NCBI GenBank assembly: GCA_958009085.1
Contig: OY253684.1
Span: 496,001 to 560,000 of the forward strand
Direction of reading: 5' to 3'
Source of the DNA: Protoeuglena noctilucae
Lineage: Eukaryota
Length of the DNA: 64,000 bases
Shown one piece after another: positions 1 through 45,100 of this stretch. A model generated the notes under the pieces. That model saw nothing but the letters and a program-made list of their open reading frames with translations. It was not told the DNA's origin and made no database searches. Positions within the stretch are counted from its first letter, which is position 1; the number at the start of each line of letters is the position of its first letter. The position numbers and the translations under genes are program-made.

Positions 1-3000
1 CGGCGCGCTTCGTGCCCGGGCTGGACCACAAGGCGCTCGTCCTGACGCTGCGGCGGCGGGCAGACAGGGCCGCGGGGCGCAACCCGCTGCGGCAGGTCCG
101 GCCGCTCTGGGCGCCGGGGAGCCATGAGGCCGAGCGATTCCGGCGGGGCGTGTGGAGGGACTTACCGGCGGACGGGCCGGGGTGCACGTCGGTGCGAGTG
201 GCCAAGGTCATCCGGCACCGCGCGGAGGCGATCAACCTGGTGGTGCGGCGGCGGCGGGACGGGGAGCGGAGGCGTCTGGAGAAGCAACTGGGACGGGCGG
301 AGAGGAGGGCGCAGCGGACGAACGCGACGGAGGACTGGGACCGGATGCTAGACCTGCAGCGCCAGCTGACGGTGCTGGAGCAGCAGGAGGTCCAGTGGCA
401 GAGCGAGCGGGCGAAGCACTTTCTGCGGGTCTTCGGGGCCGTGCCGAGTCGGCGGATCACGGCCCATTTCAAGTGGCGGCGGCGGGCTGAGGGCGTCACG
501 GACGACCTCGCGCGGGACCTGCAGACCAATATGGCCCAGCTCTACGCCCCCGCCGCGCCCCCGGCCTCCGCGGACGGCCAACATGAGCGGGCGCGCGCCA
601 ACTTCCTGCGCAACCCGCGGTCGCCGCTGTCGGAGGAGGCGAGGGCCGCTCTCGAGGCAGACGTGACACGGGCGGAGGCGGCTGAGGCGATACAGGGTCT
701 ACGGGGCGACAGCTGCGGTGGCGCGGACGGCATCTCCCCGGCGCTGCTCAAGGCGTGCCAGGGCACCGGGACCGAGGCGGGCGTCGAGCGGGTGGTCGCC
801 TACTTCGTCAACAAGCTCCTCCGCGGCGAGGGGCACGACGGCCGCCTCGCGAACGCCGCCATCACGCTCATCCACAAGGGCGGCTCGCGGACGGACTGGC
901 GGCGGTACCGCCCCATCTCCCTACTGTCCGTCCTCTACAAGGCTTCGGCCAAGGTGCTGACGGCGCGGCTGCTGCGGGTGATGCCGCAGCTCGTGCACGA
1001 GGACCAGTTGGGTTTCGTCCCCGGGCGTGACATTGGGACGGCCATCTACTCGCTGCATCTGCTCGACGAGCTCATGCGCATCTGGCGGCAGTCTGCGTGG
1101 GCGGTGCTGGTGGACTTCGAACAGGCGTACGACACGGCCTTCCGGGGGTGGGCTGCGGACGCGATGGCGTGGGGAGGGCTCCCGCCGCGTTTTGTCAAGG
1201 CGGCGGTGGCGCTGCAGAGCGACAGCCGGGCGAGCCTGGTCCTCAACGGAGCGGCGGGGGAGCCGTTCCCGCTCAACCGGGGAGTCAAGCAGGGATGCCC
1301 CCTGAGCCCGCTCATCTTCGTGCTGGCGGTGGAGCCCCTCGCAGAGAGGCTGCGGGCGTGGGGCCAGGAGCCGGTGCAGCTGCCGGGCGGCCCGCGGTGC
1401 GACCGCGTGCTCGGCATCCGGACGACGGGCGGCAGGGCCGAGACGCTTCTGGCCTTCGCCGACGACTTCAACGTGCTGCTCCAACGGCTCGTGGGGCGCG
1501 ACAGGAACCAACTCGACCCGAGGCGGGAGCTGGCCGAGGTGCTGCGGGACTTCCACCGTGTGTCCGGGCTGAAGGCGAGCCAGACCAAGACGAAGCTCTA
1601 CCGACTGGGACGCATCAACAAGCGGCAGGAGGCCAAGGCCGCCGCGCAGGGCTGCCCGTGGGGGGTGGAGCCGGGGGGCGTGCGGCTGCTGGGGGCGCAG
1701 ACGAGAGAGCAGGCGGCGCTGGTGTGGCCCGGGCGGCTGGGGGAGGCCCTGCGCCGCGCGGACGCGGCGTCATCGCTGGGACTGCCGATCCGGGGTCGGG
1801 CGCGCGTCGCCAACGCCTACATCACCTCGCTCGCGGGGTACCACCTCGAGATGTCCCCCGCCGCCGACCACTCGTGCGTCGCTGACCTGCGGAGGGTCCA
1901 GGAGCGCTATGTCCTCAACGCACGATCGGCGGGGCAGGTGTGGTTCCGTGTGGGCCGCATCATGCTGACCGCCCCGCCGGAGGAGGGGGGGCTGGGCGCC
2001 CTCCCGCTGGACGCGCACACGGCGGCGCGGCGGCTCCGGCACCTGGCGCGCGCCCTCATCACGAAGCGCGTGGGCGCTCACGGCCAGTTGGGCGGTCTCG
2101 CTGGCATCCTCACGGCGTGCCTGGAGGGGCTCGGGGCAGGCCGGCTGGGCCTGCTGCCCTTCTCACTGCCCGAGACGGACGGTTGCCACGTGGCGCAGTT
2201 GATCGAGTCCCGCCGCCTGCAGGGCAAGCTGCCGGCGCTCGAGAGCTTCTGCGACGCCATCAAGGGCCTCGGGTCCCTGCGCGCGACCCTCGGGCCCGCG
2301 CACGCGCCGCCACCTCTGGCACCCACGACGGACGAGGTCGCCCGGCAGCGCTGGACCGGCCTGGCGGCGGAGGGCCGGCTGACGCTCAACTTCGACGGGG
2401 GCTCGCGGGGCAACGGCTCCGACACGTCCACGGCTGGCGCGGGGGCGGTGCTGGCGGCCGGGGAAGGCGAGGGGGTGGAGACGCTGGAGCTCGCGGGCCC
2501 CGCCGTGTGCGGGGCCTCCAACAACCAGGCCGAGTTCGCCGCGCTTTTGGGAGGGCTACGCGCGGCAGTCGAGCTCGGCGCCACCAAGCTCCGCGTCCGG
2601 GGGGACTCCCTCCTCGTCATCCGCGCCATGGACCCGCGGGACTGCTCGGTGCTGCGGCACCCGGCGCTGGTGCCGCTGTGGACCGAGGCGCAGAGGCTCG
2701 CGGCGGGCCTCGACATCACTTGGGAGCACGTGCCACGGGAGCAGAACGCCCTGGCGGACCGCCTGTCCAACGTGGCCATGGACGGGCATGGCTGGCGGGG
2801 GGCGCGCGTGGGCGGCGGGGGCCTGGCGGGCACGGACGGCTCGCCTTTCGCCTCTTCTACGGACTTCTTCACCCCCGTCACTGGGACTACAAAGGGGGAT
2901 CTACTCTGCGCGTCGCTTCTCACCCCGGGGGTCCTCTGTGCCGCCGGCGGGGGGGCTCCGGGCGCGGGGGTGGCAGGCCTGGGGGCGCCGGCGATGGAGG

Positions 3001-4346
3001 GGGCAGCTGGCCCTCTCCACAACGACATGGGACAGGACCAAGACGATTCGGCCTCGTCGCTCCACAGCTTCGCGACGGGCGCCCATGGGAGGGCTGGTGG
3101 GGCGTGGGTGCACGACGGCGCGCCGGGCGACGACAATACGGATGATGGGATCGACGAGGGGGGTGCTGGGCGGCCGGCGGGGGGCGGCCGGCCCCTCCTC
3201 CTGCACCCGGTGGGGAGGGCGATGGCGTTACGGGGGTTCGGAACTGTGGGGCATTATCTCTGCATGCGGGACCCGGCGCGGCGATGGGACACGTGGGTCT
3301 CCTGGGCGGTCGCGCTGGGCTATGATCGGCTGCCGGGGGTGGATCGGAGGGGCCTCGGCTGGGTGGTTGGGGCTTTTATGCGGGACCTGGGCCTCCTTGG
3401 GCCGGGCAACGAGTATGCCCGGCCAGACGTGGAGGGGCAATGGGACCCGTGGGACGGGCTGGCGCTCACGGAGGGTTTCATGGAGCGCCTGCGACTTGCC
3501 TCCCCGGGCGGCGGGGAGGCCAACGACTTCTACCGGCCCATGACGGCCACCGCGCCGGGCTGGGCACTGGACCCCGGCGTCGCCTCCAAGGCGGCGCTGG
3601 ACCTGGCCTCCTACACGGTGCGGGAGGCGGCGAGGACGACGTGTGACAGGGCGGCGATCCGGCAGCGGCTGGAGCGCAAGGCGGAGGGCTGGGCGGCGGC
3701 GCTGGGGGAGGGGCACAGCGTCACGGGAGAGGGCTTGAGGCGCACGCTGGTGGCGCTGAACGGGCTGCCGCTGTCGGACGCCCTGCACGAGCGGCTGTGG
3801 ATGACGCTGGCGGACGGGTGGGCTACGCAGGACAGGATGTACTGGGCGGAGCGGGACGAGTGCCCGCTGCTGACGGAGGAGGGGGAGGCGTGCATGGGAA
3901 AGGACAGCGCGGCCCACGCGTTCTGGGAGTGCTCGCGCGCGCGGGAGGTGTGGCGCGTGGCGAGGGGAATCGTGGCGTGGGCGGGGGGGGCGCAGGGGGC
4001 GCCCCTCCGCCCGTCGGCCCTCTTCCTGCTGCGCGTGCCGGAGGGCGCGCGGTTGGGGCCGCTCACGTGGACGGTCGTGGCGGGGGCGGCCGTGCAGGTC
4101 ATCTGGCGCAGGCGGCAGCAGCTGACGAAGGACGCGGGGGCGGACGCGTCCCCGGCACAGCTGTTCGCGCAGATGACGCGCATCATGGCCGAGGAGCTCG
4201 TCGCTCTGGCGGCGTACCGGGGCGGGCGGGCCCTCGTGCGCTGCACGCACCCTGACGACGCCCTCTTACACCCAAGGGACCCGGCGAGGTCCACCTTCAC
4301 CTACACTGCGCCCACATGGGCAGCCGTCGAGCCGCTACTCCCCTGA
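1..4346 (+). CDS. Non-LTR retrotransposon ORF2 (L1/Tx1-like): APE C-terminus, reverse transcriptase, RNase H, CCHC zinc finger; 5' end lies outside the window
   Basis: Uninterrupted, intronless ORF of over 1440 aa. LDHKAL resembles the last APE motif (SDH). RT motifs: GADGI, YRPISLLSVLYK, VDFEQAYD, RGVKQGCPLSPLIF, AFADD (~700-1700). RNase H: LNFDGGSRGN, NNQAEFAAL, RGDSLLVI, HVPREQNALADRL (~2380-2785). zf-RVT-like ECP...C...HAFWEC...VW (~3860-3955). Confidence 0.95.
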   Translation, partial: ARFVPGLDHKALVLTLRRRADRAAGRNPLRQVRPLWAPGSHEAERFRRGVWRDLPADGPGCTSVRVAKVIRHRAEAINLVVRRRRDGERRRLEKQLGRAERRAQRTNATEDWDRMLDLQRQLTVLEQQEVQWQSERAKHFLRVFGAVPSRRITAHFKWRRRAEGVTDDLARDLQTNMAQLYAPAAPPASADGQHERARANFLRNPRSPLSEEARAALEADVTRAEAAEAIQGLRGDSCGGADGISPALLKACQGTGTEAGVERVVAYFVNKLLRGEGHDGRLANAAITLIHKGGSRTDWRRYRPISLLSVLYKASAKVLTARLLRVMPQLVHEDQLGFVPGRDIGTAIYSLHLLDELMRIWRQSAWAVLVDFEQAYDTAFRGWAADAMAWGGLPPRFVKAAVALQSDSRASLVLNGAAGEPFPLNRGVKQGCPLSPLIFVLAVEPLAERLRAWGQEPVQLPGGPRCDRVLGIRTTGGRAETLLAFADDFNVLLQRLVGRDRNQLDPRRELAEVLRDFHRVSGLKASQTKTKLYRLGRINKRQEAKAAAQGCPWGVEPGGVRLLGAQTREQAALVWPGRLGEALRRADAASSLGLPIRGRARVANAYITSLAGYHLEMSPAADHSCVADLRRVQERYVLNARSAGQVWFRVGRIMLTAPPEEGGLGALPLDAHTAARRLRHLARALITKRVGAHGQLGGLAGILTACLEGLGAGRLGLLPFSLPETDGCHVAQLIESRRLQGKLPALESFCDAIKGLGSLRATLGPAHAPPPLAPTTDEVARQRWTGLAAEGRLTLNFDGGSRGNGSDTSTAGAGAVLAAGEGEGVETLELAGPAVCGASNNQAEFAALLGGLRAAVELGATKLRVRGDSLLVIRAMDPRDCSVLRHPALVPLWTEAQRLAAGLDITWEHVPREQNALADRLSNVAMDGHGWRGARVGGGGLAGTDGSPFASSTDFFTPVTGTTKGDLLCASLLTPGVLCAAGGGAPGAGVAGLGAPAMEGAAGPLHNDMGQDQDDSASSLHSFATGAHGRAGGAWVHDGAPGDDNTDDGIDEGGAGRPAGGGRPLLLHPVGRAMALRGFGTVGHYLCMRDPARRWDTWVSWAVALGYDRLPGVDRRGLGWVVGAFMRDLGLLGPGNEYARPDVEGQWDPWDGLALTEGFMERLRLASPGGGEANDFYRPMTATAPGWALDPGVASKAALDLASYTVREAARTTCDRAAIRQRLERKAEGWAAALGEGHSVTGEGLRRTLVALNGLPLSDALHERLWMTLADGWATQDRMYWAERDECPLLTEEGEACMGKDSAAHAFWECSRAREVWRVARGIVAWAGGAQGAPLRPSALFLLRVPEGARLGPLTWTVVAGAAVQVIWRRRQQLTKDAGADASPAQLFAQMTRIMAEELVALAAYRGGRALVRCTHPDDALLHPRDPARSTFTYTAPTWAAVEPLLP

Positions 4347-4389
4347 GGGGCCTCTTCATTCGCAGCACGCCATCACCCCACGACATTCG

Positions 4390-4454
4390 GGCCGGGGCGC
4401 CGGCGCCGGACGGGTGGCCTTCGGGCTGCTCGTTCCGGCGTCGGCGCCCCGGCC
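4390..4454 (+). ncRNA. ~30-bp hairpin capped by a C(UUCG)G tetraloop in the LINE 3' UTR
   Basis: ggccggggcgccggcgccgga-cgggtggcc TTCG ggctgctcg-t-tccggcgtcggcgccccggcc: fully paired with four G-U pairs and one bulge; loop at 4420-4423. Confidence 0.8.
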
Positions 4455-4541
4455 AGCTGGGGCGTCCACGGCCACACTGAGCATCTACGGAAGAGCCCGT
4501 CTGCCGGCTAAAACAAGCTCCCCTGCACCCAGGATGATATG

Positions 4542-5862
4542 GGCTGGAGTACCGCACGGCGGCGCCACCGGCGACCCCCTGGGCTGCCTGGCCGGAGCCG
4601 GAGCCTGAGAGGGGCCGCGGGCGGGGGGTCCACGCGATGCGCGCGCAGCCGCAGGGGCGTGGGGCGCGCTGAAGGGCGGGCGCCTCACGGGGAGGGTGCC
4701 GGCGCTCGGGACACCAAGGGCTTCTGCGCACCCACGCTCCATCCCTCGCATGCCTAGCAGGTTATCGGACGCACACTCGACAGCTTTACCCACACGCCTG
4801 CTCCACACCTGCCCCGCAGCCGGCCATGCCACCCCACCCCAATCCGCATTACTCCCACATCCACCCGACCGCATTGCTCCCACCAGGTCCCTAAGCCAGC
4901 CCACTGCCTTCCTATGACGCACACTTTTCACCCCCCACATCACACTGCACACGCACCCTGCCCCAGCAGCACTCACCCGCATGCCACACCTCCCCGTCCA
5001 TGCCCGCAGCTAACAGGTAGATGCCTCTTCCAACCAGACCACACACACCGTCTAACTCTCTGCACGCACCCTCGTCACTCATCTCACGATCTCGCCGCTC
5101 AGCACCACTCTTGCCCACTCACCGCGCATCACCACTGACATACACACGTTCACCTCTCAACCCCCTCTCCTCTTCCACATGGACCCCCACATAAACCACC
5201 TTCCTGCTCAGCGCGCATCATCTCCCACCCCTCCTCCTGCCAGCCCCACGCCACACCCTTCTTACGGACCACGCCCCCCCACACATCTCACCTCACACGC
5301 CCAACCAGACTCGCCCTTTCCGCAAGCCCTCCTGCCCCACGCACTCCCCCCCTAGCTGCACAGGTAAGGCTCAGCACCCTCTCCTCACAGCTAATGCCCA
5401 CGTGAGCACTCGCACCCCTCAGCGCATCACTCCCCACGCACCAAGCACCACACACCGATCCAGCACAGCGTCTGCACCTCCTGACCTCCCCCAATCACGC
5501 ACAGACCTCCTCGCATCCTCCCACGACCACCGTCTTTGCCAGCCGCAGGTCAGGACCACACCGACACTCATCCTCCGTCACGCACACCGTCACCTCTCCC
5601 CGACCGCAGACCTGGACGGACGCGCACACGCACCCTTGCCTCACCCCTAGCCCTTTGCAGCCATGCCTCGCAGGCCCTTGGTGTCCCACAGCCGCCAGCG
5701 CTCACCCGTGGGGCGTCTGCTCCGTCGCCGTTGCGGCGCGCCCCGCACACCCACGGTACTGCGCGTGGCGCGTGGCCTCCCCGCCCGTGGTCCTTCAGGG
5801 GCTCTGGCGCTGGTCGGGCGGGTCCGCGCGGGGGTCGCCAGCGCGTCGCCTGTGCTCCAGCC
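4542..5862 (+). repeat. Long imperfect inverted repeat (arms ~4542-4723 and ~5672-5862) around a ~950-nt G-poor, C/A-rich spacer
   Basis: gggacaccaagggc (4708-4721) is the exact reverse complement of gcccttggtgtccc (5674-5687). Pairing continues outward to ggctggagtac/gtgctccagcc, and most substitutions are G-U compatible on the + strand. Confidence 0.85.
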
Positions 5863-6380
5863 AACGTGAGAGACCAGCCCCGCTGGGGGGGGCTGGCAAA
5901 GGGTGCGACGGGGGACAAACGTCGGGGCAGAGCTGGCAGCAACGGGTCGAGGGGCTCAGGCAGTGGCAGAGAGACGTGGCGCCCGTGGGGTGGAACGCCG
6001 GGGATGTCGTGGGAACACCCGGCAGTGGCGCAGAACGGACCAGGCGCCACAGGATCAGAGAGCGGCGTGGCTGCGACGAGGCGGGGAGAGTGGGGGCGCA
6101 AGCGGGCCGGAGGGCCTGTCTTTGGGAGTCTGCTGAGGAGGCCCTGCAGGAGAGCAACGGATGGCGAGGGGTGCTGGCGCCCGGCATGGTGGCGCTGGCG
6201 GGGGCGACCCCTCGCACGACACACAGCGGGGCAGCGGGCTTTTGGGGGCGGGCGCGATGGCAGCGCGGCAAGAGCGAGCGGCGGCGGCGAGAGTAACACA
6301 AGGGGCAACGAGTGGTGTCGGTGGGCATGGGCTGGGCGACACAGGGGTGTCAGGTGTTTGGGGGGGCGACGGGGGCGCGA

Positions 6381-6720
6381 GGCAGGCCACGGTTATCAGG
6401 GCGCGCGGGTGCGCGTGAGCGGGGGGCAGGCCTCGGTTATCAGGGCGCGCGGGTGCGCGGAGCGGGAGGTGGGCCAAGGTTGTCAGCGTTAAAGGGCCAG
6501 GGTCGCCACAGCGTCGGTTGAAGGTCGTCAGCGCATTTGGCCAAGGTCGTCAAAACGATACTCCAAGGTCGTCAGCGTGATAGGCCAAGGTCGTCAGCGT
6601 GATGGGCCAAGGTCGTCAGCGTGATGGGCCAAGGTCGTCTGGGCGTGTGGGGGCGAGGAGATGAGGGACGGGCCAAGGCCGACGGGCGCGGGAGAGGACG
6701 GGCCAAGGGCCAAGGTTGAC
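6381..6720. repeat. Tandem array: two ~44-bp units, then ~22-bp units GGCCAAGGTCGTCAGCGTGATG with degenerate flanks
   Basis: Near-perfect 22-mers at ~6563-6639. Related core GGCC(A/T)(A/C)GGT(C/T)(G/A)TCAG at 6385, 6429, 6472 and 6539; GGCCAAGG remnants run to ~6716. Confidence 0.9.
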
Positions 6721-7072
6721 GTGCGGGAGCGAGGAGCGGGGTCGCGTCGTGGGTCTCTGGGCACACGGCCGAGTGGGTCGTGCCGGCGCACGCACCCGGA
6801 GCGGGGCGGTCTGGGGCGGTCCACATGAGAGGCAGCCGGCCCTCAGGGGCGCAGCGTGGGCGAGCGGGGCGCCCAGGGGCAACACTGCGCCCCCCAAGGA
6901 ACGCCGTCTGCGTTCGGACCGCCCCCACCGCCCTCGCGTCCGGGCCAGCGTTGCCGGGTGGGCGAGCCAGCCGGGCCGCCTGAGGAGGATGGGAGGAGGG
7001 TAGGGAGCGGGGGATGTCATGATTGGCCGCACATAAGCTACACATATCGTCATTAGCCTCGGCCTCACCTTT

Positions 7073-7077
7073 TGTAA
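7073..7077 (+). promoter_or_regulatory. Candidate chlorophyte polyadenylation signal TGTAA
   Basis: TGTAA inside the only AT-richer patch (7015-7080) of the retroelement block; ATTGG (reverse CCAAT) at 7022 means a promoter reading is also possible. Confidence 0.35.
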
Positions 7078-7084
7078 TAGACGC

Positions 7085-7338
7085 CCGGGGGTCTCCACGG
7101 AGGGCCCCCGCGGCTGCATCGTCCCACTCTGGGACGGCGATTCTGCCTTCGGGCGCAGCGAGGGGGCTAGGGGTGCAAGAACCCGGGGTGGGCGACCCCT
7201 TTGCCTTAGGGTGGGGCGACCTAGCGGGGGCGGGCCACGTGCCAAATGCACTGCAACGATGGAAACCCCGGGGTGTCAGCTGCCCCGGGGGACGGCACTT
7301 CTGCCGCAAGGCGTGGCTCTGAGAGTCATAGCACCCCT
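7085..7338 (+). ncRNA. Putative compact multi-hairpin structured RNA module of unknown family
   Basis: Stems gggggtctcc/gagggccccc, cgtccca/tgggacg, gcc-TTCG-ggc (7145-7154), gcc-GCAA-ggc (7303-7312), cccgggg/ccccggg, gtgcc/ggcac, ccacg/cgtgg, closed by aggggtgc (7169-7176)/gcacccct (7331-7338). Confidence 0.5.
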
Positions 7339-7396
7339 CGACTGTTGAATCGCTCATCATCATCCGCCCCCACCGCCCAGCGACTGACGCAGTGAC

Positions 7397-7875
7397 AGAT
7401 GCAGGACGCAGGGCCGGACACATCCCCAGCGCAGCTGCTTAAGTCATCTGCAGATGACACGCGCTTTGGCCGAGGACCTCGTCGCCCTGGCCGCGCACCG
7501 GGGCGGGCGGGCCTTGCATGCTGCACGCGCCCTGACGTCGCCCCGCTACGCCCGACAGACCCGGCCAGGTCCACCCTCACCTGCACTGCGCCCTCATGGG
7601 TCGCCGTCGAGCCCCTGCTCCCCTGAGTGGGCCCCAACACGCACAGCACCCCACCACCTCACGACACATGGGCTGGGACACCGGCGTCCGAGCGGCGGGT
7701 ACTTTCTGGGCTGATGGGTTGATGGGACACCGGCGTCCCTACCCTGTCCCTGTTGCGCGGCCGCAGCTTCGCTAAGCCTCTACCGGCCGAGCCCGGCTGC
7801 TGGCAAGCAAGCTTCGCCACACCCAGGATCACTGGAGCTTCAGCAGCACCACTGCTACGGCAACGCCATCGGGGC
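7397..7875 (+). pseudogene. Decayed, 5'-truncated copy of the LINE ORF2 C-terminus and proximal 3' UTR
   Basis: DAGPDTSPAQL / MTRALAEDLVALAAHRGGRAL / DPARSTLTCTAPSWVAVEPLLP* matches the ORF2 end (DAGADASPAQL...DPARSTFTYTAPTWAAVEPLLP*) with frameshifts. DNA similarity continues (7790-7870 vs 4493-4580). Confidence 0.9.
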
Positions 7876-8241
7876 GACTAGGTGGTGATGTGGCGAATGG
7901 TGGTCGAGAGGAGTAGAGCATTGAAGCAATCAGCGGCAGCCTAGCCGCTTATTGTATTGCATAAGCCTAGCTGAGCAAGAACACACTTGTCACATCGACC
8001 TCTGCGCTACTTGATCATCCTATGCTGACTCAAGCGTCGCCCCGATCGTCGGACTCGGGCTACACCGCAGCCTCGCCCTCCTCCTCCTTGCCCTTGGCCG
8101 ACGGGAGCGCGGCGTCCCGACCCCAGCTGCAGGGGTAGAGGGGGTGGAGCGGTGACCACAAGCGGCTCGGTATGTACGATAGAGCTACGCGTGCAGGCCA
8201 CTCGCGAATGGCTGCAACTGGGCCCCCCTGAGTCGCGCGGC

Positions 8242-9411
8242 TCACCACACGGTCTCGGTCAGGCGCAGACCGGGAATCTTGTCGTACGCCAGGCCCAGGA
8301 CCGTGGCGACGAAGAAGCCGGCCCCGACCGCGTTCCCCAGCGTGGCGGGGATGAGGGACTTGACGATGAACTGCGACACGGTCACGTCGTGCGCCCCCGC
8401 CGCCATGCCCATAGGCACCAGGAACATGTTCGCCACCGAGTGGTCGAACCCCTGCGAGACCAGCCGGGGGAGGGACGGGCGTGAGGGCATGCGGGGCAGC
8501 AGGTGGCGGAGCGACGACCGACAGACGCCGGGTGCCGCACGCACGTGCGCATGCCCCACATGTCAGAGCTGCGCGTGCCTGCCCATCACCGACGCTGCGT
8601 GCGGCCGGCGACGGCGCGCCACTCACCATGGCCACGAAGGCGCCGACCGGGAAGAGCACCGCGAAGAACTTGCCGATGAAGGTGGCGGATGACGTCGCGA
8701 GCACGATGGCCATGCACACCAGCCAGTTACACAGGACGCCCCGGCAGAAAACCACGCCGAACGGCTGCGAGACCTTGACGTGGGCCACGGCCATGGCGCC
8801 GGGGTTGTGGTCGTGCGTCCGGGCGGCGTAGACGAGGCCGACGAGCAGGAGGGAGCCGGCGAGGTTGCTGACCCAGGCCATGAAGGAGGCGCGTACCCAG
8901 TCCTGCGGGGGCGCGGGGGCGTGTGCGGTGTGTGGGTGATGGAGCGTCGCAGTGTGGCAACTGGGCGGGGGGCAGCTGTGACAGCGGAACGCCGCCCTCT
9001 GCCTCCCACCCAGGCGGCCCGGCCCAGGCCACTCACGAAGAAGCTGATCCTGCGCGCCAGGAAGGCGGCAAAGCAGCTGCCGACCGTGCCCGTGTACAGG
9101 TCGGCGCCCGTGATGACGACCATCAGGAGCCCGAAGGGAAGGCCGATGAACCCGAACACGAACTTCTGTAGCCCAACGTTGCTGGCCTTCACGCCGGGCA
9201 TGTTGCCCCCCACCGTGTCCGCCAGCAGCGCTCCGAAGGCGATGTAGCAGCCCGCCATGAAGCCCAGGACGATGGCCGGCATCCACGAGGCACGGCCCCG
9301 CTTGACGCCCTGCTCCACGTAGCTGTCGAAAATCTCGGGAGGTGAGATGAGGTCGCCCAGAATGGGCCCGGGGCCGCTGGAAGCCTTTGCCGGGGAGATG
9401 CCGATCGCGTT
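8242..9411 (-). CDS. NAR1: Formate/nitrite transporter (FNT) family, NAR1-like; spliced, first exon not resolved
   Basis: GFMAGCYIAFG, LPFGLLMVVITGADLYTG, WVSNLAGS, RGVLCNWLVCMA, GFDHSVANMF, PATLGNAVG. Exons ~9411-9037, 8902-8627 and 8451-8242 with GT-AG introns. Confidence 0.92.
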
Positions 9412-10181
9412 CTGCGGCGGAAACCGATTTATTTACGTTTCACTCCGGATGCCAGGTCGGGGGGCTGGCTGGGGGCCCAGATCTGGGACCTGGCCCCCAG
9501 GGGTCACGTGGGTCCCTGCAGGGCGACCCACGTGGACCGTCCCTTCCTCGCGAGGGTCCCGGCCGAACGCCATTTTGGGAGCCGTATCGTATCGTAAACC
9601 ATGATGAAAATCGCGCTCGGCGCCGCGCCGGGAGCCGCGCTGCGATCGGGATCGGAGTCACGCCGGGAGAGCCACGCGCGGTATCGGGCCTACGTCGCAG
9701 GTGCGGGCGGGCGGGGGGCTTCGGTCGATCTGGGGCACAGGCGGGAGTACGCATCGACGTGCCACGCGACCCCTCATGGCTTGAGAAGTGCAAGTGTCAG
9801 TGGTGCAGGTGCCAGTGGTGCGTCAGAGGACCCGGGGCTTGATAGCATGGATCGCGCAAGAGCACTCAAATCAACCACCACTTTCCTGGTCCCTCGCGTC
9901 GCTCCTTTTCGGTGACCATGTCGACGCGCAGCCCCATGTCCGCCCGAAAGAGCGCCCAGGTGAGGCGCGTCAGGGGTCAGCAGCTATCTCGTCGAACGCG
10001 CAAAGGTCGGGGAGTTAGACAGGGGTCTCCGCCGCGGCTCTCCGCGATCGGCGGGGTCTGTGTGCCCGCATGCTGACAATGAGCGGGCCTGGCGCACACA
10101 GGAGCTTTACACCCTGTTTGATCGTGTCGTTGCGAAGACAAGCGTTTAAAACACGCTCGGGGATTGCCTGCATTGCCACGG

Positions 10182-36200: not shown

Positions 36201-37798
36201 AGGCGCGGGAGAGGAAGGCGAACCGAGAGGCGGCGGCAGTGGCGGCGGCGGAGGTGACTAATTGACTGAACAGGACCAAGGGCACGCAGCTTAGACTTGG
36301 GGTCTGTTGCTCGTACCACCACCACCCTGCACCCGTGCTGCGCTCGCAGGTTTCCGCCCGTGGCCGCCGCAAATTCGCCGACGAGTTCCCCGACGAAGCC
36401 TCCAGCGACGGTGACGATTCTGACGAAGGGAACGGGCAGGGCGAGGGCACGGGTCTGGGTTTCGGTTTGAATCCTGGGTCGGGGGGTCGCTTCCAGGATG
36501 CAGAGTTCTTCATCCCCTACCAGCCGGGGAACGGCAAGGCTGAGGAGCACTACAGGTGAGGGGGAGTGGTGGGGTGGGGGGCGTGAGAGGGTGAGAGTAG
36601 CAGTGGGGGTGGCTGGGAGGGTGCGGGTGTGGGAGAGGGTGGTCATGATCACTGTTACTGCTATCACTGCTATCATAGCTGCTGATATGAAATTTTTTTC
36701 GATTGGCAATGAAAACACATTATCATGTCACCCTCACCGGCCGCAGTCTCCACGACAGCCACGGGGCGGTGGATGACGCCGTGATGGACCTGGTGGGGGA
36801 GGACGCGGAGGGCATGCGCAAGGCCCGCAGCGACTATTTCTGGGACAAGAAGCGTCGGCGGTACGTGAAGCTGCAGAAGGCCGAGTCGGTGACGGCGAGC
36901 GGCAAGCGCGTCATCAAGAACGAGGCGGGGCGGCTGGTGAAGGTCAAGGGAGGTGGCACGGGTGAGGGTGGGCGCGTGCATGCGGTGGCTGGTGAAGGTC
37001 AAGTGGGGCGGCAGGGGTGAGGGTGGTTGCATGCTCGCAGTGGCTGGGGTGCGTAGTACACTAGCGTGGCCAGGGTGACCGAGATCCAACGTGCAACCGA
37101 TCGACCAAGATCCAACGTGTAACCGATACTGCCCCCTGGCTCTCAGGTCGCTACAAGGATTGGGTGAAGCGGACGCATCAAAAGGTGGCGTCGTCGGGAT
37201 CGAATGAGGACGCGGGGGCGGGGGCGCTGGCACGATCCGTGGGGACGGCGGCGGGGGTGCGCCAGAAGTTTGGGCGGGAGAGGGGGCCGGGTGCGAAGGC
37301 GGCGCGCAGTGCGGGCGGGGATGGCTTCGGGAAGGGCCACGTGCCGAGGGACGAGCTCAAGACTCCAGATCAGGTGCGGGGGTGGTGATGGTGGTGTGAG
37401 TGGTGTGTGTGGCTGTAAGTGGTGGTGGACCAAGGGGTGGTGGTGGTGTGAGTGTTGAGGGCGGAGGTGCGTGCAGTTGCAGTGCTGGGGACATTGACCA
37501 ATTCGATCCTCTCATGCATCGCCCGACATATGCACTCATTGCCTCTCTCTGTACTCATGCATCGCCCCGCACACCATGCATTCCCCAGGTCCGCAAGGAG
37601 CGCGCCATCAAGGCCAAGCGGCAGGGCCACGAGGCCAAAGTGCATGCGCAAAAGGCGGCAAGGGGCAAGGTGGTGGGCAAGCCGGGGCAGAGGGTCAAGG
37701 GCGGCGGGCTCAAGCCGCGGGGTGGGGTGGTCAAGAAGGGTAGGGGTGGTAAGGGCGGCAAGCCCCGCGTGGGACAGAAAGGGCGGGGTAAGAAGTGA
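33220..37798 (+). CDS. DDX54: DEAD-box RNA helicase DDX54/Dbp10; multi-exon; a further 5' exon near 32936 is possible
   Basis: [59 protein letters not shown]10CT-like [11 protein letters not shown] and ELKTPDQ. Confidence 0.95.
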
Positions 37799-37818
37799 GC
37801 GGTGTTGGTTTGTGGGTT

Positions 37819-37823
37819 TGTAA
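37819..37823 (+). terminator. Candidate TGTAA polyadenylation signal of DDX54
   Basis: TGTAA 20 nt after the stop codon; this is the known chlorophyte poly(A) signal. Confidence 0.45.
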
Positions 37824-38031
37824 CTTTGTGTCTTTGCAATTTGGAGCTAGCTCGTGGCAGATGAGCAGCTTTTCTAAAAGCATTTGTCATAGTAGTCGAG
37901 CTTTGCTACTTGCGCCGCTCTGGTTCATCCTGTCGACAAATTCAAAGTTTGTGCCCGAGCCCCGTCATCAGATACACACCCGTTCCAGTCCATCCAGCCC
38001 AAGTCAGCCCGCCCAGCCCCCACGGTCACCG

Positions 38032-42160: not shown

Positions 42161-45100
42161 TTACGCAGTTTCGCTCTCTGCCAAGGTGCGGGGGGGTATC
42201 TGGGGGACGGCCGGGACGACCGTGGCGGCCACCCCCGGCTCCGCCCTCTCGGGCATGTCCGCCAGGAGCGGGTACGCCCTGGCCGTGAGGACGCCAAGGT
42301 AGTGGAGGAGCTGGATGCGGTGGCCAGGCTCGAACGACACCCCGCGCAGGCTCTCGAGCATGGCGGACGCCCCCTTGGGCGACGCAGCCTGCCCGGCGTC
42401 CTGCCCGGTGTCCGACAGGGCCCTCGGCCGCGGGCCGCCCTGCAGCATGACGTGGAGCGCCCCCGCCGCCTGCACGTAGCGCATGGCTGCCTCGCGCGTA
42501 TCGCCCATCAGCTCCGCCACCGCCCCGGCCCGGCCCGCCTGGATGGCCGTCGTGTAGAGCGCCTGGGGATGCGGTGGTGGCCAGCGGAGTCATGTCACAT
42601 ACGGCTGGACTGGTAGCGCACGATCCATGCCTATCACGTGATGTGACTGGCCGCCCCAGCCTCGCCCATCCTCGCCTGCGCTGCGTCCGGCAGTGTCTCT
42701 GGCTCGGGAATGCCCTCCGCTTGCACGCGGAGACGGACTGCGTCCACCGACTGCACCACGGCCTGCATGCCGCCACGCAGCACGGGCTCCACCAGAGCCG
42801 CCTCCTTGCAGACCTCCGAGTCCTGGACACAGGGACGCAGATGGTGGAAATCGAACGTATTCCCACGCAGGCAGGGCAGCGAGGCACAAGAAGCGGATCT
42901 GTTGCCGACAAGTACTCCTATGCTGACTGTCAGCGGCACATGCTCGGCATCGTCGCAAAGAGTGCACATGTGGCGATGCGCATGCTTTGTCCCGCGTCGC
43001 AAGGGCACTTGCCTGGACGCCGGCAACGCCCCGGAGGATGTTCTGCGCAAACACGTGACCCTCCTCCAAGATCGACAGGCAGAGGAGCATGAGGGACTGC
43101 AGTGAGGGAGTGGAGACGGCATCCTCAGCGTGGCCGGCCAGCCCCGATGGGCCGCATAAGATAATTCATCAGCAGCACAGCCTGGTTGGCATTGATGTAA
43201 GGTATGATAATGCAAAAGGCGAACCACTATGAATAAACCACCCACCAGGGCGTCGAACCACTGCCCCTGCGCCGCCACGTCCCGCGCGCACTCCCACACC
43301 GCCCCAGCCGAGCACTGGTGGTTGTGGAGCCGGGCAGCCGGGTGCGCGTGCTCCAGCCCCTCCTCCACGGCGATGGGCAGCTGAAGTAACGTGGAGGGCT
43401 CGGACAGGTGCCCGGGCAGGCCATCGAGCATCACCCGGCGCATACGGCCCACGCCGTGGTCCTGCGCCGCGACCGACTCCGCGGCCTGCCCTGACTCAGG
43501 GGCCTCCGGGCCGCGGTCGACGGGCAGCCCGTCCACGATGACGTAGCCCCCGCCCAGCAGGCCGCCCTCGCTGGCCCCGAGGGAGTCCCCCGGCTGCCGC
43601 TGCCGCGCGCCCTCGTCGACGCGGCGCGACAGCCTCTCGCGGTGGTCCCGGATGTCCTGCTGGCTCGGCCGCACGTGGGTGGCCTCGCGGGAGAGCTTGG
43701 TGCAGTCGAGCTGCCTGGCCACGTCTCTTATCTCCGCCTGAAGCACCGAGTCCGTGAGGGCCTCCCCCGACGCCCCTTCCATGAAAGTGCCCGAGGACGC
43801 GTCGTCGCCGCTCTGGGACCCGGAGCTGAGAAAGGGGTGCCCGAAGAACTCCGCCCAAGACAGTCGGTCCTGGGGCCGCCTCCGCAGCAGGCGAAGGATG
43901 AGGTCCTGGCACATGGGGCTGAGTCGGGTCGCAGCGCGCTCCGGGATGCGCACGGGCGCCTTCTCAATGTTCTGGAGCAGGTGCACGGGGTTCTGGCCCG
44001 TAAAGGGAGGCCGCCCGCACACCATCTCGAACAGGATTGTGCCCACGCTCCACAGGTCGGCGCTGGCGTCGTAACGCTGGAAGCGCTGCGGGTAGGGGTG
44101 AGAGGCAAACGCACATGGAGCTGACTGGATAGTCAACGACCCGCATAATGCTTCTCGACCGACTCGCGCGTCGCGACAGCCTCCCACCGCCGCGCCGCAA
44201 GTGGACATCCCACGGTCATACGGCGCGCAACTGCATTTCACGCGTTGCTAATCCATCGTGTGCGATCGCGGCGTCGCCTCACCAGGATCTCTGGTGCCAT
44301 GTACAGTGGCGACCCACACAGCGTGTTGGCCATGGCCTGGCTCTGCAGCTCCCGGACGAAGCCGAAATCAGCAATCTGCAAACGCGGCAATCCAAAGCGT
44401 GCTCTGCGCCTCGCTGCACACGCGCTCGCCCCTGCGTGGCCTGACACTCGACACCCCGACCGCAAGCGCTCGTCTCGCCGCATCCAGCAGCAGGCGCCGG
44501 GGCTTCTGGCCTCACCTTGAGCTGCAGCTGGTCATGCTTGGACGCCAGCAGCAGGTTCTGCGGCTTGAGGTCACGATGGATGAGGTCGGCCTCCCGGAGG
44601 GCGCGGAGGCCGGCCGCCAGCTGCTGGAAGAAGTACAGGGCCTCCTTCTCCGGGAGAGGCCCGCGCGTGCGGATGAGCTGACTCAGGTCCCCCGCCGAGC
44701 AGAACTCGAGGATGAGGAAGAGGCGGTCCTGGCGACGACAGAGGTCCAGGAGCGCCACCACGTTCGGGTGGCGGATGCGCTTCAGGACCGACACCTCGGA
44801 CTCCAGGCTCTGGAAGCGGGGCAAAGCAACAGGACGCCATGGGCTATCGCTGTGACATGGCGGGGCGGTCGCGCGGCTGGGGAGTGTGGAAAAGATGCCA
44901 GCATGGTGCTCCAGCTCACCTGCCGTAACTTGGCGTCGAGTCGGCCCAGCGGAATCTCCTTTACTGCGGCTTCCTGCCCCGTCGCGAGGTTGCGGGCGTA
45001 CCACACGACGCTGAAGGACCCAATGCCGATCTGCTGGCCCAGCTCCCAGTCCCCCACCATCCGGGTGCTTCCTGCGCGTCGGCGGGGAGCCAGGGCAATG

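What the first reader, a model, noticed from the sequence alone, without database searches (positions are those of the whole stretch)
4347..6250. LINE 3' region folds into a giant strand-specific RNA: G-U-rich ~180-bp stem closing a ~950-nt G-poor loop
Seen: 4542-4723 is the reverse complement of 5672-5862, with patchier pairing of ~4350-4540 to ~5897-6055. Most differences between the arms fall in one direction (reverse-complemented left arm C vs right arm T, A vs G; e.g. cccgtgAggcgCcCgcCc vs cccgtgGggcgTcTgcTc, cccgcccgCggCccCtc vs cccgcccgTggTccTtc). These are G-U pairs in the + strand transcript and A-C mismatches in the - strand. Side hairpins sit at 4390-4454, 5872-5896, 6111-6145 and 6164-6214. 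Inference: neutral decay of two tail-to-tail copies should not give this asymmetry, so the duplex appears selected at the RNA level. This would be an RT/RNase H ORF with a large cis-encoded structured RNA displaying an unpaired C/A loop. I do not recognise this architecture in L1-clade elements. This is the best candidate for a new system in the window.
Basis: partly seen in the sequence, partly recalled or inferred. Interest (0 to 1): 0.9.

Follow-up and report, generated by a model that had tools for sequence, protein, structure and literature searches.

The report
Decayed inverted repeat beside a LINE
Just downstream of a retrotransposon gene lies a real but worn 190-base inverted repeat around a 940-base G-poor spacer; it looks like a separate piece of repeat DNA, not a new RNA device of the retrotransposon.

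Summary
The core observation holds. 4542-4728 is the imperfect reverse complement of 5669-5862: 177 aligned columns, 144 Watson-Crick, 16 G-U, 4 A-C, 13 other, 27 unaligned bases. It encloses a spacer with 14% G. In silico only the + strand forms the giant stem.

The outer "patchy pairing" is not above shuffles. Only one side hairpin (4390-4454) is strong.

The G-U excess is modest: p=0.012 against 1:1, but 0.06-0.09 once the regional G excess of the + strand is allowed for.

The module does not behave as part of the LINE:
- Homology with a second LINE fragment in the window stops at 4535, 7 nt from the left arm.
- Another repeat unit begins at about 5856, 6 nt from the end of the right arm.
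- In one run the depth steps up at the inner edge of the left arm.

Every other sequence I could reach looks like the same locus in other strains, about 98% identical. Covariation across independent copies was therefore untestable. RNA-library contigs cover the region, but none links it to ORF2.

Best reading (0.45): a discrete foldback or inverted-duplication module of DNA-level origin. If transcribed it would give a long hairpin RNA. Interest is low to moderate.

The parts
3..4346 (+). LINE ORF2, open from the window edge (1447 codons): reverse transcriptase plus an RNase H-like domain
   Evidence: Pfam RVT_1 at residues 299-534 (E 1.8e-23) and RVT_3 at 804-924 (E 4.8e-12). Translation. Distant relatives carry an exo/endonuclease domain plus RT, as L1-type elements do.
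4347..4541 (+). Short LINE 3' UTR, shared with the second LINE fragment; ends in a short GAT repeat
   Evidence: 4129-4535 aligns with 7403-7829 at 72.6%. There is no significant similarity beyond that point. One RNA-library contig carries an extra GAT behind 4532 (table 4).
4390..4454 (+). Strong 30-bp hairpin with a UUCG loop in the LINE 3' UTR
   Evidence: -71.5 kcal/mol (z -8.8) as + RNA, against -56.3 (z -6.6) as - RNA. 4 G-U pairs, 0 A-C.
4542..4728 (+). Left arm of the inverted repeat (80% GC)
   Evidence: The window copy lacks 7 nt behind 4671 that contigs of X1, X2 and X13 carry (table 4).
4729..5668 (+). Spacer ('loop'): 940 nt, C/A-rich, 14% G, GC skew -0.56
   Evidence: 353 of 940 nt are paired in the + MFE and 646 of 940 in the - MFE.
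5669..5862 (+). [quoted passage not shown]
5856..7365 (+). Separate repeat unit ('E'), G-rich, with 44-nt (6362-6486) and 22-nt (6470-6639) tandem arrays. Not part of the inverted repeat, but it sets its right-hand boundary.
   Evidence: P0039 joins a stretch like 7246-7365 directly to a stretch like 5856-6293. P0031 joins an unrelated AT-rich flank to ~5922 onwards. Tandem arrays. X1 depth is 1381-5523 at 6526-6828, against 138 on ORF2.
7378..7829 (+). Second, 5'-truncated LINE fragment of a diverged subfamily (last ~75 codons plus 3' UTR), without the inverted repeat
   Evidence: tblastn: residues 1372-1447 match 7378-7623 at 49%. blastn, alignment.

Best explanation
4542-5862 is a discrete 1.3-kb foldback module: two ~190-bp arms in inverted orientation around a 940-bp spacer whose base skew is the reverse of everything around it. 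It sits between the true 3' end of a LINE (about 4541) and the 5' end of another repeat unit (about 5856).

Inferred: it arose at the DNA level, by an inverted duplication, by a small inversion with duplicated breakpoints, or by insertion of a foldback-type element. It is now a fixed, low-copy feature of this locus.

Shown: it is not a conserved part of the LINE 3' UTR that the two LINE fragments in the window share.

Shown in silico only: if transcription from the LINE or from elsewhere runs through it on the + strand, the arms pair into a ~160-180-bp G-U-containing stem and the G-poor spacer stays largely unpaired.

Inferred: such an RNA would be a long hairpin, the kind of substrate that RNA-silencing machinery can process. 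The G-U excess comes mostly from the general G excess of the + strand in this region, plus chance.
For: The boundaries of the module coincide with boundaries of other repeats on both sides.
- Left: LINE-to-LINE homology ends at 4535/7829. Nothing beyond it is above shuffles. There is GAT-repeat length variation at 4532.
- Right: repeat unit E starts at ~5856 in a second context (P0039) and at ~5922 in a third (P0031).

Other points.
- Pairing does not extend outside 4542/5862.
- There is no reversed ORF2 to the right of the right arm.
- The spacer skew (-0.56) is opposite to the ORF2 four-fold sites (+0.26) and to the right flank (+0.26 to +0.33). The 4-mer spectrum of its reverse complement correlates at r=0.77 with G-rich sense-strand non-coding blocks of a + strand gene elsewhere in the window.
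- X1 depth: 138 over ORF2 and the left arm in one unbranched contig up to 4743, then 228-511 over the spacer and right arm.
- Only one locus is in evidence. The X2 contig spanning 4457-6357 has 32 differences. P0032 shares 5 of those variants. Against 1.84 billion representatives only 3 protein clusters were found.
- Skew-adjusted P for the G-U excess is 0.06-0.09.
Against: - No target-site duplication flanks the module. The best candidate, 8 of 10, is what the 11,664 boundary and length combinations scanned would give by chance. An insertion is therefore not shown.
- The depth step in X1 lies at the inner edge of the left arm (between about 4714 and 4744), not at 4542. A single discrete module does not predict this.
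- The G-U excess is nominally significant against 1:1 (p=0.012; 20:4 with the hairpin, p=0.0015 two-sided). It is not explained by CpG decay: non-CpG sites give 7:0.
- Differences between the window and the laid runs show no excess of C<->T over G<->A (18:18 in X2). That weakens a purely mutational explanation.
- Depth rises towards the right in X1 (138 to 5523), which also fits a LINE with a long 3' UTR and many 5'-truncated copies.
- Contigs of an RNA library cover both arms and the spacer.
Confidence: 0.45

Rival explanations
1. Tail-to-tail LINE ends. The left arm is the family-specific 3' tail of this LINE, so the element ends at about 4728-4743. The right arm is an older copy of the same tail, 5'-truncated to ~190 nt and inserted in the opposite orientation 940 bp away. 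The stem is then a by-product of two insertions.
For: In X1 the left arm shares depth (138) and one unbranched contig with ORF2. Depth rises to 268 within ~30 nt of the inner edge of the left arm. Both arms end inwards on the same short motif before they diverge (read directly). The region is a nest of repeats: a second LINE fragment and unit E.
Against: The truncation point of the reversed copy (5862) would have to coincide by chance with two things: the point where the two LINE subfamilies stop being alike (4535-4542), and the start of unit E (5856). The second LINE fragment has no such tail. No other copy of the arm occurs in the 64 kb, or at 85% identity or more in X1 over 4506-4707. Strand-symmetric neutral decay predicts G-U = A-C, and 16:4 is observed.
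Confidence: 0.2
2. The arms and the spacer belong to a long 3' UTR of the LINE (to 5855 or beyond), and the stem is kept by selection on the + strand RNA. It would serve, for example, as a recognition or stability element, or as a device that displays an unpaired C/A-rich loop.
For: - G-U 16 against A-C 4 (p=0.012), and 4:0 in the UTR hairpin.
- The + strand arm duplex is 50 kcal/mol more stable than the - strand duplex.
- + strand z is -7.0, against -1.5 for the - strand.
- CpG decay is excluded.
- The 7-nt stretch missing from the window but present in X1, X2 and X13 lengthens the pairing (read).
- One of the three substitutions seen in the arms turns G-C into G-U.
- Depth rises 3'-wards in X1, and 'before'-type loose ends lie at 4351 and 5617, as 5'-truncated copies would give.
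- P0039 could be an empty X|E site into which LINE plus module went as a single unit.
Against: - LINE-to-LINE homology stops 7 nt before the arm.
- Unit E occurs without the right arm in 2 other contexts.
- The skew-adjusted P is only 0.06-0.09.
- The stem is worn: 81% Watson-Crick, 13 non-wobble mismatches, 27 indel positions.
- ORF2 and the spacer have about equal depth in the metagenome run X2 (6.2 against 7.35). The LINE is therefore about single-copy there, and nothing shows a family of active copies on which such selection could act.
- In another assembly the ORF2 prediction is frameshifted (P0003).
- No contig of the RNA library bridges ORF2 and the arms.
- The spacer's skew is opposite to that of the LINE's own neutral sites.
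Confidence: 0.15
3. A non-autonomous DNA transposon with long terminal inverted repeats (~190 bp), inserted at the junction between the LINE and unit E.
For: Both outer ends of the repeat coincide with repeat boundaries. There is no coding capacity: Pfam finds nothing in 5 ORFs that overlap the module. The pairing ends sharply at 4542 and 5862.
Against: No target-site duplication. No other copy with both arms, in the window or in the searches that could be run. Arms at 81% are far more worn than the strain-to-strain divergence of ~2%. The depth step lies at the inner, not the outer, edge of the left arm.
Confidence: 0.1

Closest known systems
Long inverted repeats that give hairpin RNAs and siRNAs (as catalogued in LIRBase, PMC8728187; passages read)
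   Same: Two arms in inverted orientation around a loop. Predicted to fold into a long hairpin when transcribed. Often built from or lying next to transposable elements.
   Different: The arms are 187 and 194 nt, below the database's 400-nt filter. The indel share is 13%, above its 10% limit. The spacer is five times the arm length. No small-RNA data were available, so processing is untested.
3' stem-loops of 'stringent' LINEs recognised by their own reverse transcriptase, such as eel UnaL2 and zebrafish L2 (PMC1636434, PMC4176376; search listing and abstract openings only)
   Same: A + strand RNA structure downstream of ORF2 with wobble pairs. The 30-bp hairpin at 4390-4454 fits this kind well.
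   Different: Those are short hairpins in the conserved 3' tail, shared by all copies and by partner SINEs. The giant stem lies outside the sequence that the two LINE fragments share, spans 1.3 kb, and was not found in any independent copy.
Foldback elements and inversions flanked by inverted duplications (recalled; no call)
   Same: Long, imperfect inverted termini around a non-coding middle. The inner segment is compositionally reversed relative to its flanks.
   Different: No target-site duplication, no family of copies, and no non-inverted allele was seen.

Membership tests
LINE (non-LTR retrotransposon), for the ORF | Reverse transcriptase domain of the non-LTR type, with accessory domains | tested here: met
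   RVT_1 E 1.8e-23 and RVT_3 (RNase H-like) E 4.8e-12. Distant relatives carry the exo/endonuclease domain PF03372. The endonuclease region of this copy lies outside the window.
Part of the LINE's own 3' UTR, for the inverted repeat | Present in other copies or subfamilies of the element, contiguous with ORF2 | tested here: not met
   The second fragment shares 4129-4535 only. No further independent copy could be fetched. The contigs that do span the junction look like the same locus in other strains.
Part of the LINE's own 3' UTR, for the inverted repeat | Co-transcribed with ORF2 on the + strand | tested here: inconclusive
   Contigs of RNA-library run X4 cover 3900-4376, 4447-4671, 4696-4841, 4812-5551 and 5615-6272. 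None bridges ORF2 to the arms. Contigs carry no strand, and DNA carry-over is not excluded.
Structured RNA under selection | Compensatory substitutions across independent or diverged sequences | not testable with these tools
   Only ~98%-identical strain variants were available. 3 substitutions were seen in the arms, none compensatory.
Structured RNA under selection | Excess of G-U over A-C mismatches beyond what strand composition gives | tested here: inconclusive
   16:4, p=0.012 against 0.5, and P=0.06-0.09 against 0.61-0.63. Fisher test against the X2 background of 18:18 gives p=0.045.
Long inverted repeat in the LIRBase sense | Both arms longer than 400 nt | tested here: not met
   Arms are 187 and 194 nt. 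Criterion.
Long inverted repeat in the LIRBase sense | At least 80% matches and at most 10% indels between the arms | tested here: not met
   144 of 177 aligned columns match (81%, met). 27 of 204 positions are indels (13%, not met).
TIR DNA transposon or foldback element | Target-site duplication flanking the inverted termini | tested here: not met
   Scan of 36 x 36 boundary pairs and lengths 4-12: the best is 8 of 10, at boundaries displaced from the repeat ends.
TIR DNA transposon or foldback element | Several copies bounded by the same termini | tested here: inconclusive
   None in the 64-kb window. No genome is held for this window. Depth in X1 suggests extra copies of the spacer and right arm, but not of the left arm.
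Known RNA families (Rfam) or tRNA-derived SINE | Match to a curated model or a tRNA-like head | tested here: not met
   Rfam on 4000-7600 gives only two chance-level matches (E 0.9-0.99, far below gathering scores). ARAGORN finds nothing.

The most novel reading that the evidence does not exclude
The 1.3-kb module is a functional + strand RNA element tied to this LINE: a ~180-bp wobble-rich stem, kept by selection, that closes and displays a ~940-nt G-poor, largely unpaired C/A-rich loop. It could work as a protein-binding platform, a stabiliser of the element's RNA, or a controlled source of hairpin-derived small RNAs. No L1-type element is known to me to carry such an architecture. That statement rests on recall and on three literature searches that were not aimed at excluding it.
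Probability: 0.12. Interest if true: 0.7.

Novelty: new member of a known kind. Interest (0 to 1): 0.3.

Why it matters
If the stem were truly maintained at the RNA level, this would be an unusually large cis-RNA structure attached to a non-LTR retrotransposon in a marine microbial eukaryote. It would also be a natural case of a long hairpin with a deliberately unstructured loop.

As the evidence stands, it is mainly a worked example of a caution. A strand-biased G-U excess in an inverted repeat has to be judged against the local strand composition, and against the boundaries of neighbouring repeats, before it is read as selection.

The locus is still a reasonable candidate for a hairpin-RNA or small-RNA source, should small-RNA data for this organism become available.

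Tried and rejected
- **Whole genome:** none is held for this window.
- **More copies from metagenome contigs:** an exact 24-mer from the right arm found 0 stretches. The C-terminal half of ORF2 gave 39 pattern hits, none confirmed.
- **More copies from viral contigs:** ORF2 gave none confirmed; a 30-mer from the left arm-spacer junction gave 0.
- **Earlier notes of this scan:** nothing by place or by sequence.
- **Protein-database route, using spurious ORFs over the right arm:**
  - 2 clusters in the word-indexed search and 3 in the full HMMER scan of 1.84 billion representatives. Together they have 8 members.
  - All are the same locus, or unit E in two other contexts. They were useful for boundaries, not for covariation.
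- **Naming the organism through a formate/nitrite-transporter-like ORF:** no hit at E<=1e-10. Low-complexity words probably swamped the candidates.
- **Reversed LINE copy to the right of the right arm:** tblastn with ORF2 finds none. Rejected.
- **CpG decay as the cause of the G-U bias:** rejected. CpG o/e is 0.85-1.0, and non-CpG sites give 7:0.
- **Splicing of the spacer**, which holds several GT-AG-like motifs: no joint in the RNA-library contigs (table 5). Not supported.
- **Parts without cover in read laying:** X13 has no cover at 3900-4101, 5011-5313 and 5819-5919. X4 has gaps at 4376-4447, 4671-4696 and 5551-5615. No conclusion is drawn from these holes.
- **Bacterial promoter and terminator scan:** irrelevant for a eukaryote, and empty.
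- **Whole-sequence shuffles for the 1.4-kb fold:** the tool gives none above 1000 nt. I replaced them with 14 segment-wise shuffles.

Full report
**Context.** The window is a GC-rich (62-77%) eukaryotic sequence. No genome is held for it.
- Sixteen public runs from seven studies hold the stretch or part of it. They include marine metagenomes, four marine metatranscriptome runs and runs of three coded organisms.
- An open frame runs from the window's first bases to the stop at 4344-4346. It encodes a reverse transcriptase (RVT_1, E 1.8e-23) and an RNase H-like domain (RVT_3, E 4.8e-12).
- Distant relatives carry the endonuclease-RT architecture of L1-type LINEs.
- Calling it a LINE is therefore sound. 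The 5' part of the element lies outside the window.

**The observation.** A local alignment pairs 4542-4728 with 5669-5862.
- It has 177 columns: 144 Watson-Crick, 16 G-U, 4 A-C and 13 other. 27 bases are unaligned.
- It is the only inverted self-match in the 64 kb at E<=1e-5.
- The spacer is 49% C and 14% G.
- The claimed outer pairing (~4350-4540 with ~5897-6055) is not above chance: score 17, against 13.6 +/- 1.7 and a maximum of 21 in 200 dinucleotide shuffles.
- Of the four side hairpins, only 4390-4454 is strong. It has 30 bp and a UUCG loop, at -71.5 kcal/mol and z -8.8. The others have z -2.6, -0.8 and -2.2.

**Strand specificity.**
- The arm duplex is -321.9 kcal/mol as + RNA and -271.1 as - RNA.
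- Folding 4347-6250, the + strand MFE holds 158 arm-to-arm pairs (24 of them G-U) and leaves 587 of the 940 spacer bases unpaired. The - strand MFE holds no arm-to-arm pairs, because the G/U-rich complement of the spacer pairs with everything. The 1.4-kb folds show the same picture.
- Against 14 shuffles that keep each of the three segments' dinucleotides, z is -7.0 for the + strand and -1.5 for the - strand.
Much of it follows from base composition alone.

**The G-U bias.** Sixteen G-U against four A-C gives p=0.012 against 1:1. Adding the hairpin (4:0) gives 20:4.
- CpG decay does not explain it. CpG observed/expected is 0.85-1.0 across the region, and sites outside CpG context give 7:0.
- The + strand is G-rich here at sites that are not paired. 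ORF2 four-fold sites are G543, C318, T48, A46, and 5863-7020 has a skew of +0.26 to +0.33.
- A strand that tends to hold G rather than A, or equivalently loses C, will turn Watson-Crick pairs into G-U more often than into A-C. With a null of 0.61-0.63, P(>=16 of 20) is 0.06-0.09.
- Against this rival, differences between the window and the laid runs show no excess of pyrimidine over purine transitions (18:18 in X2; Fisher p=0.045 against the arms).
- The bias is therefore real, modest and unresolved.

**Boundaries.** Three independent lines say the module is a unit apart from the LINE.
- *A second LINE fragment.* A 5'-truncated fragment of a diverged subfamily lies at 7378-7829. It matches 4129-4535 at 72.6%. 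What follows it is not similar to the left arm: score 10, against 8-11 in shuffles. Homology therefore ends 7 nt before the arm, at a short GAT repeat whose length varies in one contig.
- *Another repeat on the right.*
  - Proteins predicted from other assemblies show that the G-rich sequence to the right is a repeat of its own.
  - P0039 joins a stretch like 7246-7365 directly to a stretch like 5856-6293.
  - P0031 joins an unrelated AT-rich flank to ~5922 onwards and runs to ~6830.
  - That unit therefore starts 6 nt inside the end of the right arm.
- *Depth in run X1.* One unbranched contig of depth 138 runs from ORF2 through the left arm to 4743. Beyond that there are several variant contigs with a summed depth of 186-268, then 228-511 over the spacer and right arm.

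No target-site duplication flanks the module, and no reversed ORF2 lies beyond the right arm.

**How many copies.**
- A metagenome contig (X2) spans 4457-6357 with 32 substitutions.
- P0032, P0037 and others, from contigs of 74 kb to 1.07 Mb, cover the same stretch. P0032 shares 5 of the variants seen in the laid runs.
- X13 contigs of a second coded organism are 97-98% identical over the spacer and right arm. One of them spans the junction of left arm and spacer.
- In X2, ORF2 and the spacer have about equal depth (6.2 and 7.35).
- All of this fits one orthologous locus seen in several strains, not a family of transposed copies. X1's higher depths to the right (up to 5523 at 6728-6828) concern unit E above all.
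- In X1, X2 and X13 the left arm carries 7 nt that the window lacks, and these improve the pairing. So the window's copy is slightly more worn than the others.

**RNA.** Contigs of one metatranscriptome run cover ORF2, both arms and the spacer in pieces, at depths of 4-13. They show no splice joint, and no contig links ORF2 to the arms. Contigs carry no strand, and DNA carry-over cannot be excluded.

**What it most likely is.** A discrete foldback module of DNA-level origin, wedged between the LINE's 3' end and unit E.
- The reversed skew of the spacer fits an inverted segment or an insert whose own sense strand is the window's - strand. It is C-rich where the LINE's neutral sites and both flanks are G-rich.
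- The reverse complement of the spacer resembles the G-rich sense-strand non-coding blocks beside a DBP10CT-encoding exon on the + strand at 36.8 kb.
- The depth step at the inner edge of the left arm is the main fact that my preferred reading does not explain. It favours the tail-to-tail rival.

**Comparison with known kinds.**
- The hairpin at 4390-4454 is an ordinary LINE 3' UTR stem-loop of the kind studied in UnaL2 and zebrafish L2 (search listing and abstract openings only).
- The large repeat resembles the long inverted repeats that give hairpin RNAs. It fails LIRBase's filters on arm length (187/194 against >400 nt) and on indels (13% against <=10%) (passages read).
- Rfam and tRNA scans find nothing.

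**Verdict.** The feature is real. The RNA-selection claim is not established, and membership in the LINE is doubtful. What is left is a modest, low-copy inverted repeat in a nest of repeats.

Noticed in passing
window 5856-7365: A ~1.5-kb G-rich repeat unit with internal 44-nt (6362-6486) and 22-nt (6470-6639) tandem arrays. It occurs in at least three contexts: after the right arm here, after a 7246-7365-like stretch in P0039's contig (possibly head-to-tail units), and after an AT-rich flank in P0031's contig. In X1 its 3' part reaches depth 5523, against 138 on ORF2. Other strains differ in the number of 22-nt and 44-nt units.
   Followed up: partly
window 7378-7829: A second, 5'-truncated LINE fragment (last ~75 codons plus 3' UTR). 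It is 72.6% identical to 4129-4535 and is followed by unique sequence and a - strand gene. No target-site duplication was found.
   Followed up: partly
window 4387-4440: One X1 contig skips 54 nt inside the strong hairpin, with 4 nt of microhomology. This could be a real deletion allele, or a polymerase or reverse-transcriptase jump across the hairpin (table 5).
   Followed up: no
window 36400-37900: A + strand gene with a DBP10CT-domain exon (36787-36945, E 5e-09). It is interrupted by blocks that are 46-51% G and 10-19% C on the sense strand. Non-coding sense strands in this genome seem strongly G-rich, which bears on any strand-bias argument.
   Followed up: partly
window 3-4346 (compare P0003): The ORF2 prediction from another assembly (1.0-Mb contig) is identical up to about residue 790 and then runs in another frame. 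This could be a frameshifted copy in that strain, or an assembly or gene-model effect.
   Followed up: no
window 8063-9439 (- strand): An open frame with a formate/nitrite transporter domain (PF01226, E 8.6e-21). A protein kinase domain lies in 42637-44247 (-). Both are ordinary host genes next to the repeat nest.
   Followed up: no
window 4671: The window's left arm lacks 7 nt that contigs of X1, X2 and X13 carry. With them the two arms align better (table 4).
   Followed up: partly
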